Assembly (NCBI GenBank): GCA_964016885.1
Contig: OZ024741.1
Location: forward strand, 231,508,001 to 231,572,000
Length of the DNA stretch: 64,000 bases
Origin: Eledone cirrhosa
Taxonomy: Eukaryota
Direction of reading: 5' to 3'
Shown: piece by piece, positions 46,590-48,458 of the stretch
How positions within the stretch are numbered: position 1 is the stretch's first letter
How the letters are laid out: each line of letters begins with the position of its first letter
Translations under genes and position numbers: made by a program
Notes under the pieces: generated by a model
Told to the model about the DNA's origin: nothing
Database searches by the model: none
The model's input: the letters and a program-made list of their open reading frames with translations, nothing else

Positions 46590-46591
<2 letters not shown>

Positions 46592-48458
46592 GTAAGTATG
46601 CATGTATACGTACATACATATATGTATACAGACGTACAGTAGCATGCACATATATATATATATATACATATATACATACATATGCATACAGGTACACATA
46701 CATATATGCACGTATCAGTTTAGCGGCGCTAACGTCGCTTTGTTCGTTTGTAAACAAACTGAACAGCCTGAATTTATGCCATACGGTGTTAAGGCAACCA
46801 CGTCACCTTTTTGTTCAACACTGACACAGGAACGATGTACTAGTTTCAAGCTTGTTAGCTATCATCAGCACCGTTTACCCATCTGCCAGATAGTTGAACG
46901 TTCGAAAGTATATACTTTCCTTATGAAAATTAACGGCTGAGCAGCCTAATTTGCATATTGAGTGAGTTAAATCGGTCAGGCATACCGAAAACGATAAATT
47001 GAAACAAAATGAAAACGAAATTTCATTTCTCACTCTTAGTATGGCACTTACTTAAATGTAAGTATGCATGTATACGTACATACATATATGTATACAGACG
47101 TACAGTAGCATGCACATATATATATATATATACATATATACATACATATGCATACAGGTACACATACATATATGCACGTATCAGTTTAGCGGCGCTAACG
47201 TCGCTTTGTTCGTTTGTAAACAAACTGAACAGCCTGAATTTATGCCATACGGTGTTAAGGCAACCACGTCACCTTTTTGTTCAACACTGACACAGGAACG
47301 ATGTACTAGTTTCAAGCTTGTTAGCTATCATCAGCACCGTTTACCCATCTGCCAGATAGTTGAACGTTCGAAAGTATATACTTTCCTTATGAAAATTAAC
47401 GGCTGAGCAGCCTAATTTGCATATTGAGTGAGTTAAATCGGTCAGGCATACCGAAAACGATAAATTGAAACAAAATGAAAACGAAATTTCATTTCTCACT
47501 CTTAGTATGGCACTTACTTAAATGTAAGTATGCATGTATACGTACATACATATATGTATACAGACGTACAGTAGCATGCACATATATATATATATATACA
47601 TATATACATACATATGCATACAGGTACACATACATATATGCACGTATCAGTTTAGCGGCGCTAACGTCGCTTTGTTCGTTTGTAAACAAACTGAACAGCC
47701 TGAATTTATGCCATACGGTGTTAAGGCAACCACGTCACCTTTTTGTTCAACACTGACACAGGAACGATGTACTAGTTTCAAGCTTGTTAGCTATCATCAG
47801 CACCGTTTACCCATCTGCCAGATAGTTGAACGTTCGAAAGTATATACTTTCCTTATGAAAATTAACGGCTGAGCAGCCTAATTTGCATATTGAGTGAGTT
47901 AAATCGGTCAGGCATACCGAAAACGATAAATTGAAACAAAATGAAAACGAAATTTCATTTCTCACTCTTAGTATGGCACTTACTTAAATGTAAGTATGCA
48001 TGTATACGTACATACATATATGTATACAGACGTACAGTAGCATGCACATATATATATATATATACATATATACATACATATGCATACAGGTACACATACA
48101 TATATGCACGTATCAGTTTAGCGGCGCTAACGTCGCTTTGTTCGTTTGTAAACAAACTGAACAGCCTGAATTTATGCCATACGGTGTTAAGGCAACCACG
48201 TCACCTTTTTGTTCAACACTGACACAGTTTGTTTACAAACGAACAAAGCGACGTTAGCGCCGCTAAACTGATACGTGCATATATGTATGTGTACCTGTAT
48301 GCATATGTATGTATATATGTATATATATATATATATGTGCATGCTACTGTACGTCTGTATACATATATGTATGTACGTATACATGCATACTTACATTTAA
48401 GTAAGTGCCATACTAAGAGTGAGAAATGAAATTTCGTTTTCATTTTGTTTCAATTTAT
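46590..48458 (-). mobile_element. Retrozyme-like array B: 466-bp unit x ~3.5 plus inverted arm 48228-48458
   Basis: Identical translations recur at 47009, 47475 and 47941. One HHR per unit. (TA)n on both sides. Homologous to array A. Confidence 0.88.
46831..46875 (-). ncRNA. Type I HHR (array B; copies 47297-47341 and 47763-47807)
   Basis: Minus strand: aacggtg-CTGATGA-t-agc(taacaa)gct-t-GAAAC-ta-GTA-catcgtt. Confidence 0.88.

What the first reader, a model, noticed from the sequence alone, without database searches (positions are those of the whole stretch)
46590..48458. Array B: 466-bp units that look identical, each with a minus-strand HHR
Seen: ~3.5 head-to-tail copies with no differences I could spot, three full HHRs, and an inverted arm joined through a CAG microhomology at ~48227. 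Inference: a non-integer number of identical units in one (TA)n insertion fits rolling-circle reverse transcription of a circular RNA, or repeated template jumps, and a very recent event.
Basis: partly seen in the sequence, partly recalled or inferred. Interest (0 to 1): 0.85.

Follow-up and report, generated by a model that had tools for sequence, protein, structure and literature searches.

The report
Penelope-type ribozyme repeat records RNA re-reading
This array is one young copy of a hammerhead-ribozyme repeat with over 10,000 units in this animal genome, likely moved by a Penelope-type reverse transcriptase, and A-to-G changes repeated unit after unit in sister copies suggest that single, probably circular and edited, RNA molecules were copied several times round.

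Summary
Observation confirmed: 3.5 identical 466-bp units (46590-48227), three minimal type I hammerheads on the minus strand, and an exact 234-nt inverted arm joined by a 3-nt overlap. It is not a lone event. The hammerhead 35-mer occurs 10,471 times in the genome. Sister loci share one anatomy: two head-to-head, 5'-truncated arms in (TA)n, one ending 62 nt beyond the other (52 of 58 clear two-armed loci). That is the Penelope-like element (PLE) 'tail', so this is a non-autonomous PLE / animal non-LTR retrozyme, a known kind. The window's own identity says little, because the same 242-nt core sits at 7 other loci. Sister arrays say more. Variants repeated within a locus are mostly A>G on the ribozyme strand (17 of 25; replicate 8 of 11), while single-unit variants are strand-symmetric. 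One locus repeats a genome-private, A>G-rich two-unit block six times, and both arms often share such marks. This favours one edited RNA, primed twice and re-read as a circle. No RNA data and no autonomous partner were found.

The parts
46380..46589 (.). (TA)n-rich target, left flank; it follows the 3' end of another hammerhead-like element (46289-46379)
46590..48227 (-). Long arm: 3.5 identical 466-bp units, ribozyme-sense on the minus strand; 5' truncated at unit position 165 (48227); 3' end at the 'short' site, position 404 (46590)
46832..46874 (-). Minimal type I hammerhead 1 (predicted cut 46838/46837)
47298..47340 (-). Minimal type I hammerhead 2 (predicted cut 47304/47303)
47764..47806 (-). 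Minimal type I hammerhead 3 (predicted cut 47770/47769)
47060..47181 (-). UA/UG-rich long hairpin of each unit (positions 279-400); length-variable between loci and holding many of the A>G changes in sister loci
48225..48227 (.). 3-nt overlap joining the two arms head to head (family range mostly 0-6 nt)
48225..48458 (+). Inverted short arm, unit positions 233-466, exact copy; 3' end at the 'long' site
48397..48458 (+). 62-nt 'tail' (positions 405-466), present at one outer end only
48459..48567 (.). (TA)n-rich target, right flank
50139..50289 (.). Diverged relic of an older subfamily of the same family (about 90% identical); a separate insertion
8733..9858 (+). Array A: sister family, 467-bp units with a related hammerhead; same two-armed anatomy with a roughly 72-nt tail

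Best explanation
The array is a very young insertion of a high-copy, non-coding hammerhead repeat that is likely mobilised by a Penelope-like element's endonuclease/reverse transcriptase, which probably copies one RNA from two fixed start sites and likely reads a ribozyme-made RNA circle several times round. SHOWN in sequence: more than 10,000 units; no ORF; two head-to-head 5'-truncated arms; one short and one long (+62 nt) outer end; (TA)n flanks; locus-specific variants shared by all units and both arms; an A>G strand bias among those variants. INFERRED steps: (1) a tandem is transcribed, and the paired minimal hammerheads cut only partly, giving 1-, 2- or more-unit RNAs that are ligated into circles; (2) some RNAs are A-to-I edited in their hairpins; (3) a PLE RT-endonuclease, probably a dimer, nicks both strands of (TA)n and primes two cDNAs on the same unit at positions 404 and 466; (4) each RT runs on for a variable number of rounds; (5) the two cDNA ends join through 0-6 nt of microhomology. 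Odds: non-autonomous PLE/retrozyme about 0.9; both arms from one RNA about 0.75; covalent circle re-read during insertion, for many loci, about 0.6. For this particular locus the template type cannot be told.
For: Copy number: 10,471 exact hammerhead 35-mers, reversed control 0; 4,449 units of the window's subfamily. Ends: 52 of 58 hand-picked clear two-armed loci have one long and one short end, 0 short+short, 1 long+long, 5 unresolved; 110 of 112 classified ends abut TA. The long-ended arm is longer in 19 and the short-ended arm in 19 of 38 loci, which argues against one arm being a fold-back copy of the other. A PLE protein in vitro nicks and extends both strands, starts at two internal sites that bound the tail, and is predicted to dimerise (PMC11167929). 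Re-reading: unit length is identical in 292 of 553 within-locus pairs vs 969 of 12,008 between loci. Repeated variants are A>G in 17 of 25 sites (T>C 2), against 4 of 55 singletons (T>C 8). In 19 loci chosen only for having two or more hits: 8 of 11 vs 7 of 56. L167 is (AB)x6; its two unit types differ by 15 A/G substitutions; the B marker occurs 6 times genome-wide, all there; both arms end on an A-type unit. L194 has 4-5 clustered A>G changes in all three tails on both arms. L195 repeats a genome-private 7-nt deletion abutting the cut site in 5 of 5 units. The genome holds autonomous PLEs that also end in (TA)n with two end sites.
Against: No autonomous PLE with a homologous pseudo-LTR was found in about 1.1 Mb of fetched sequence. 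Cleavage and circular RNA are untested. Some loci look like heterogeneous multi-unit templates rather than a monomer circle: both arms end in the same ordered unit lengths at L170, L174 and L175; L164 and L152 are mosaics. The old array L053 has 33 variants shared by subsets of units, as DNA-level duplication would give. Young arms show a mild, post-hoc excess of 5' ends just downstream of the cut (12 of 55, expected 6.1, p 0.016; absent in older loci, 2 of 33), which fits linear cleaved RNAs; this locus's long arm ends there (position 165). The A>G sites lack a clear ADAR neighbour preference. Ten of the 17 sites are seen only in L167, which I picked after seeing its alternating spacing, and 4 of the 8 replicate sites come from L194. 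Counted by locus, the bias is 11 vs 3 (p 0.019). Several 'locus-fixed' variants are lineage markers (G17A: 464 units). A second deletion near the cut is in only 1 of 2 units. PAc transposition in vitro did not need hammerhead cleavage.
Confidence: 0.62

Rival explanations
1. PLE-type insertion of about 1-2 units from a linear RNA, followed by DNA-level tandem amplification (unequal crossover or slippage), as proposed for vertebrate retrozymes in bioRxiv 10.64898/2026.07.22.740005. Any RNA edit in the founder unit would spread to all copies.
For: Would also repeat A>G marks and give locus-specific periods. Block-shared variants occur in L053 and L152. Arrays reach 15 or more units.
Against: Both inverted arms exceed one unit in 18 of 38 young loci and share the same marks, so two independent expansions would be needed. 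Variants repeated within a locus are A>G-biased while later DNA mutations are singletons and symmetric, so amplification preceded DNA mutation. In one search (52 loci plus the window), 255 singleton variants stood against 48 partly shared ones, 33 of them from one old array.
Confidence: 0.15
2. The template is an uncut or partly cut linear multimer read once; identical units simply mirror a homogeneous young source array. This may well hold for this locus and some others.
For: The window carries the common haplotype. Ordered heterogeneous units are shared by both arms at L170, L174, L175 and L164. There is a mild excess of 5' ends just past the cut. Unprocessed RNA was the main substrate for PAc in vitro.
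Against: Cannot give the same molecule-specific changes in every unit when no source with them exists in the assembly: L167, L195. Copy-and-truncate alone can only shorten arrays.
Confidence: 0.12
3. Repeated precise template jumps from the 5' end to the 3' end of one hammerhead-cut linear monomer or dimer (a 'nicked circle' held shut by stem I).
For: Explains the same repeated marks. The L195 arm carries a trimmed junction and also stops at position 160, next to the cut.
Against: No pile-up of 5' ends at the cut (3 of 88 vs 3.1 expected). No insertion next to the cut and only 6 deletions among 349 junction-spanning segments, 5 of them identical.
Confidence: 0.1
4. Assembly artefact or plain satellite unrelated to retrotransposition.
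For: Zero differences over 1,872 bp could reflect consensus polishing; no raw long reads were checked.
Against: Same anatomy at dozens of loci with unique flanks and retained unit-level differences; fixed ends in TA; family present in contigs of other runs.
Confidence: 0.01

Closest known systems
Animal non-LTR retrozymes (Cervera & de la Pena 2020, PMC7229834; Li, Clavereau & Pollet 2026, bioRxiv 10.64898/2026.07.22.740005)
   Same: Non-coding, AT-rich tandem units of a few hundred bp, one type I hammerhead per unit, thousands of copies, co-occurring with autonomous PLEs; proposed to spread via circRNA and PLE RT.
   Different: The unit (466 bp) is slightly above the 150-450 bp range of the 2020 paper. 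The hammerhead is minimal with a palindromic stem III. The strict two-armed short/long-end anatomy and (TA)n targeting were not in the text I read: 'inverted' occurs 0 times in PMC7229834 and only in a reference title of the preprint. Circular RNA is untested here.
Penelope-like elements, e.g. Poseidon PAc (Frangieh et al. 2024, PMC11167929) and Neptune/Naiad (Craig et al. 2021, PMC8557442)
   Same: 5'-truncated tandem copies, an inverted 5'-truncated copy at the 5' end, a tail at one end only, two internal RT start sites, AT-rich/(TA)n targets, minimal hammerhead.
   Different: No ORF; tail 62 nt rather than 30-40 nt; arrays of up to about 15 units per arm; no homologous autonomous partner found.
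L1 twin priming (recalled, no call)
   Same: Two primers from the two nicked strands give an inverted 5' segment joined by microhomology.
   Different: In L1 the two segments are different parts of the RNA. Here both arms cover the same nucleotides from two fixed sites and share private variants.
Array A family in the same window (8733-9858) and a 310-bp hammerhead array beside L034
   Same: Same two-armed, two-end anatomy in (TA)n.
   Different: Different sequence families (A shares only about 78% identity over 59 nt).

Membership tests
Animal non-LTR retrozyme | [quoted passage not shown] | tested here: met
   466-bp units, one hammerhead each; compensatory stem changes
Animal non-LTR retrozyme | No coding capacity, no LTR/PBS/PPT; low GC | tested here: met
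   Only a 114-codon low-complexity stop-to-stop frame, on the non-ribozyme strand; no terminal direct repeat beyond the tandem; AT-rich by inspection. PBS and PPT were not searched for specifically
Animal non-LTR retrozyme | High copy number, dispersed | tested here: met
   10,471 exact hammerhead 35-mers
Animal non-LTR retrozyme | Self-cleavage and accumulation as linear and circular RNA | not testable with these tools
   Needs RNA and biochemistry; only indirect genomic support
Animal non-LTR retrozyme | Co-occurrence with autonomous PLEs | tested here: met
   902-codon RT + GIY-YIG frame at 30123-32831; Neptune-like and other PLEs
Non-autonomous Penelope-like element | 5'-truncated tandem copies with an adjacent inverted 5'-truncated copy | tested here: met
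   52 of 81 element chains two-armed; 5' ends spread over all phases
Non-autonomous Penelope-like element | Tail at one end only, bounded by two fixed RT start sites | tested here: met
   52 of 58 clear two-armed loci long+short; tail 62 nt
Non-autonomous Penelope-like element | AT-rich / (TA)n target | tested here: met
   110 of 112 classified ends
Non-autonomous Penelope-like element | Sequence homology to the pseudo-LTR of an autonomous PLE | tested here: inconclusive
   None in about 1.1 Mb fetched, covering four PLE families; the genome was not searched exhaustively. One possible Neptune chimera, L044
Autonomous PLE | RT + GIY-YIG ORF between pseudo-LTRs | tested here: not met
   No such ORF in the array
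ADAR-edited template | Clustered, strand-biased A>G in double-stranded regions | tested here: met
   17 A>G vs 2 T>C; replicate 8 vs 1; clusters in L167 and L194
ADAR-edited template | Neighbour preference (5' U>A>C>G, 3' G; recalled) | tested here: inconclusive
   5' T10 A8 C3 G3 vs background 43/38/26/16; no 3' G excess
snRNA-type internal promoter (as recalled for newt satellite 2) | Match to the host's U1 proximal element | tested here: not met
   Best match reached by 25 of 300 shuffles; host U1 genes lack the octamer upstream

The most novel reading that the evidence does not exclude
This family is a natural barcoding experiment. A-to-I edits on individual RNA molecules were fixed into DNA, showing that a PLE reverse transcriptase dimer primes both target strands on one unit of one circular RNA and rolls round it up to a dozen times. 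That would be the first genomic evidence for the proposed circRNA route of retrozymes and PLE tandems, and it explains the PLE tail and inverted arm in one step.
Probability: 0.55. Interest if true: 0.82.

Novelty: new member of a known kind. Interest (0 to 1): 0.64.

Why it matters
How Penelope-like elements build their tandem and inverted insertions is described as still undefined (PMC8557442). That circular RNAs template multi-unit cDNA was proposed in 2014 and 2020 (PMC4209133, PMC7229834), while a 2026 preprint invokes DNA-level amplification after insertion. A family with thousands of young units and molecule-specific A>G marks lets these models be separated by counting, genome-wide, without new experiments. 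It also names a 466-nt RNA, two start sites and a target for an in vitro test. My literature searches (open-licence PMC and bioRxiv only; supplements not read) found no report of such repeated edits in retrozyme or PLE arrays. The locus itself is ordinary within its family.

Tried and rejected
Rfam: no family at gathering score; mir-297 and similar hits are TA-repeat noise. A DNA search of the own genome returned nothing, even for the window itself, because common words are skipped; patterns were used instead. Sequencing-run search: no RNA holder listed, so no expression evidence either way. It listed 20 holders under many coded organism labels; I could not tell related species, contamination or horizontal spread apart. 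Laying four runs gave family contigs in X2 (5,412) and X4 (15), and none in X1 or X23 (no test). Autonomous partner: blastn and nhmmer profiles of tail and core against about 1.1 Mb found only family members and other non-coding hammerhead families. snRNA-type promoter: rejected as not significant. Fold-back origin of the inverted arm: rejected, because either arm can be the longer and the ends are long+short. Pile-up of 5' ends at the cut: not seen overall. The back-junction read test: uninformative by construction. Earlier scan notes: three look-ups, nothing returned.

Full report
OBSERVATION. The array is as described. Identity at lag 466 is unbroken from 46590 to 48227 (TRF 3.5 copies, 100%). 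An exact 234-nt inverted copy follows at 48225-48458 and shares three bases with the array. I number the unit 1-466 on the minus strand from 47459 to 46994. Each full unit has a minimal type I hammerhead at positions 120-162, with the predicted cut after 156. Rfam does not call it (weak HH9 hit). Among 379 family-type hammerheads in the fetched sequence, stems I and II keep pairing through changes on both sides in older subfamilies and in sister family A. The palindromic stem III is the type described as needing a second ribozyme to cut (PMC4209133, passages). The cut-to-cut unit folds far better than shuffles (z -8.1), largely because of a UA-rich hairpin.

FAMILY. The window is G000:C2:231508001-231572000 in a 3.0-Gb animal assembly. 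Its repeat landscape resembles octopus genomes (recalled, not tested). The hammerhead 35-mer occurs 10,471 times; a marker of the window's subfamily 4,449 times; a sister young lineage 1,690 times. Only the first 100 places of a search are listed, so my loci come mostly from contig C1: all 52 clusters, then clusters.

ANATOMY. Most insertions have two arms whose 5' ends meet head to head (52 of 81 chains). Outer ends fall at two fixed positions, about 404 and 466. Of 58 clear two-armed loci that I selected, leaving out complex ones, 52 have one of each, none two short ends, one two long ends (its second arm is of an older subfamily) and five are unresolved. 110 of 112 classified ends abut (TA)n. 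Junction overlaps are mostly 0-6 nt. This matches PLEs: 5'-truncated tandems, an inverted truncated copy and a tail at one end (PMC8557442, passages). It also matches the in vitro finding that a PLE protein nicks and extends both strands of AT-rich DNA from two internal start sites bounding the tail (PMC11167929, parts 1-2 of 4 read). Either arm may be the longer (19 vs 19), so neither is a fold-back copy. Three loci have a long-ended arm made of the tail alone (L071, L072, L150), as expected if a trailing RT stops at the leading primer (inference). Autonomous PLEs are in the window (30123-32831, RT and GIY-YIG; 35822-39661, PLE-like by eye and by tblastn, no Pfam hit) and elsewhere. A Neptune-like family has a hammerhead variant, TA flanks and two end sites. 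None examined shares sequence with this unit. L044 joins an inverted Neptune tail and endonuclease fragment to a short-ended arm of this family, with no Neptune remainder seen in the 1.2 kb beyond: one possible chimera.

WHAT IDENTITY MEANS HERE. The window's 242-nt core is identical to 17 of 97 units at 7 other loci, and the full unit recurs at L082. Its perfect repeats show youth, not mechanism.

EVIDENCE FROM SISTER LOCI. Unit length is locus-specific: identical in 292 of 553 within-locus pairs against 969 of 12,008 between loci, including odd periods (459, 465, 471) that reflect indels present in every unit. Many young loci carry their own haplotype in all units and both arms. Some markers are lineages (G17A, 464 units); others are nearly private (L035 haplotype: 6 units at 2 loci). 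Outside the microsatellite and an indel-prone stretch, variants repeated within a locus are A>G on the ribozyme strand at 17 of 25 sites (T>C 2), whereas singletons are A>G in 4 of 55 (T>C 8) (39 loci). I picked L167 after seeing its alternating spacing; without sites seen only there the count is 7 A>G vs 2 T>C. A replicate of all 19 new clusters with two or more hits gave 8 of 11 vs 7 of 56. There, two A>G sites are probably ancestral or lineage states and four come from L194. By locus, my tally is 11 with A>G vs 3 with T>C (p 0.019). L167 alternates two unit types six times; they differ by 15 A/G substitutions, with about 5 and 12 A>G changes against an L170 unit; the left arm matches the terminal unit type of the right arm. 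The B marker occurs six times genome-wide, all in that locus. L194 has 4-5 clustered A>G changes in all three tails on both arms (privacy not tested). L195 lacks seven bases that can be placed immediately 5' of the cut in 5 of 5 units. Genome-wide, 13 units have a deletion in that 10-nt stretch: these five, one 6-nt deletion (in one of two units of its locus) and seven 1-nt deletions. Strand-biased, clustered A>G is what A-to-I editing of the template would leave (inference; neighbour context inconclusive). Its repetition in every unit means one molecule, or its first copy, was multiplied before DNA mutations accrued.

CIRCLE, JUMP OR LATER EXPANSION. 5' ends of arms longer than one unit are spread over all phases, with 3 of 88 at the cut (expected 3.1). 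Junctions are clean: 6 of 349 segments have an indel beside the cut. Both favour a closed circle over jumping. Later DNA expansion would have to act on both inverted arms (both exceed one unit in 18 of 38 loci) before any symmetric mutation spread. Against a circle-only view: L170, L174, L175, L164 and L152 look like heterogeneous multimer templates; L053 shows block-shared variants; young arms have a mild post-hoc excess of 5' ends at 157-200 (12 of 55, p 0.016; older 2 of 33), which includes this locus; and PAc did not need cleavage in vitro. Mixed templates (circles of 1-3 units and linear multimers) are likely.

COMPARISON AND VERDICT. The element meets the sequence criteria of an animal non-LTR retrozyme (PMC7229834 and PMC7761336, passages; bioRxiv 10.64898/2026.07.22.740005, parts 1-3 of 5 plus a term search) and the structural criteria of a non-autonomous PLE. 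RNA-level criteria and the partner remain open. No supplements were read, and they may list this family. It is a new member of a known kind. Its value lies in the family, which makes the long-proposed circular-template model countable. Interest 0.64.

Noticed in passing
window 8733-9858: Array A: sister 467-bp hammerhead family with the same two-armed anatomy. Its roughly 72-nt tail begins TTAAG like that of array B. Further copies in L066, L093, L160.
   Followed up: partly
window 30123-32831 (-) and 35822-39661 (+): Two long PLE-type reading frames (902 and 1279 codons, stop to stop). The second is flanked by hammerhead-bearing repeats at about 35682 and 39964. Further PLE fragments at 62-604, 18313-19221, 34372-35166, 41571-43382, 52699-53247, 62876-63831.
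   Followed up: partly
window 54245-56196: 850-nt perfect inverted repeat built from a roughly 594-bp tandem unit, ending in (TA)n; no canonical hammerhead core found by my motif scan. Possibly a ribozyme-less non-autonomous PLE.
   Followed up: no
window 46289-46379, 57164-57236, 45100-45160: Other type I hammerhead-like motifs on the plus strand. The first two are one family, and the first ends in the same TA run that array B entered.
   Followed up: no
L034:6150-8400: A third family: 310-bp hammerhead unit, seven apparently identical copies plus an inverted arm with a roughly 35-nt tail, in the TA run next to a family-B insertion.
   Followed up: no
L044:2738-4070: Inverted Neptune-like tail arm plus endonuclease fragment fused to a short-ended family-B arm; possible single chimeric insertion pointing to Neptune as the helper.
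   Followed up: partly
L095:4773-7896: An older family-B array inserted in a Neptune-like ORF with an apparent 9-nt duplication; part of the composite is then repeated in inverted orientation.
   Followed up: partly
window 47415-47422 (-) and equivalents: An octamer ATGCAAAT about 80 nt upstream of the hammerhead is kept in families A, B and weaker relatives (L047, L161, L197). A 27-mer around it occurs 15,865 times. May be a promoter element; the U1 proximal-element match was not significant.
   Followed up: partly
window 2402-5484 (-), 11667-13814 (+), 24171-27535 (-): LINE-type endonuclease/RT reading frames, partly broken.
   Followed up: no
window 47178-47541, public runs: The unit's words are held at half or more by 17 runs under many coded organism labels; related species, contamination or horizontal spread were not told apart.
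   Followed up: partly
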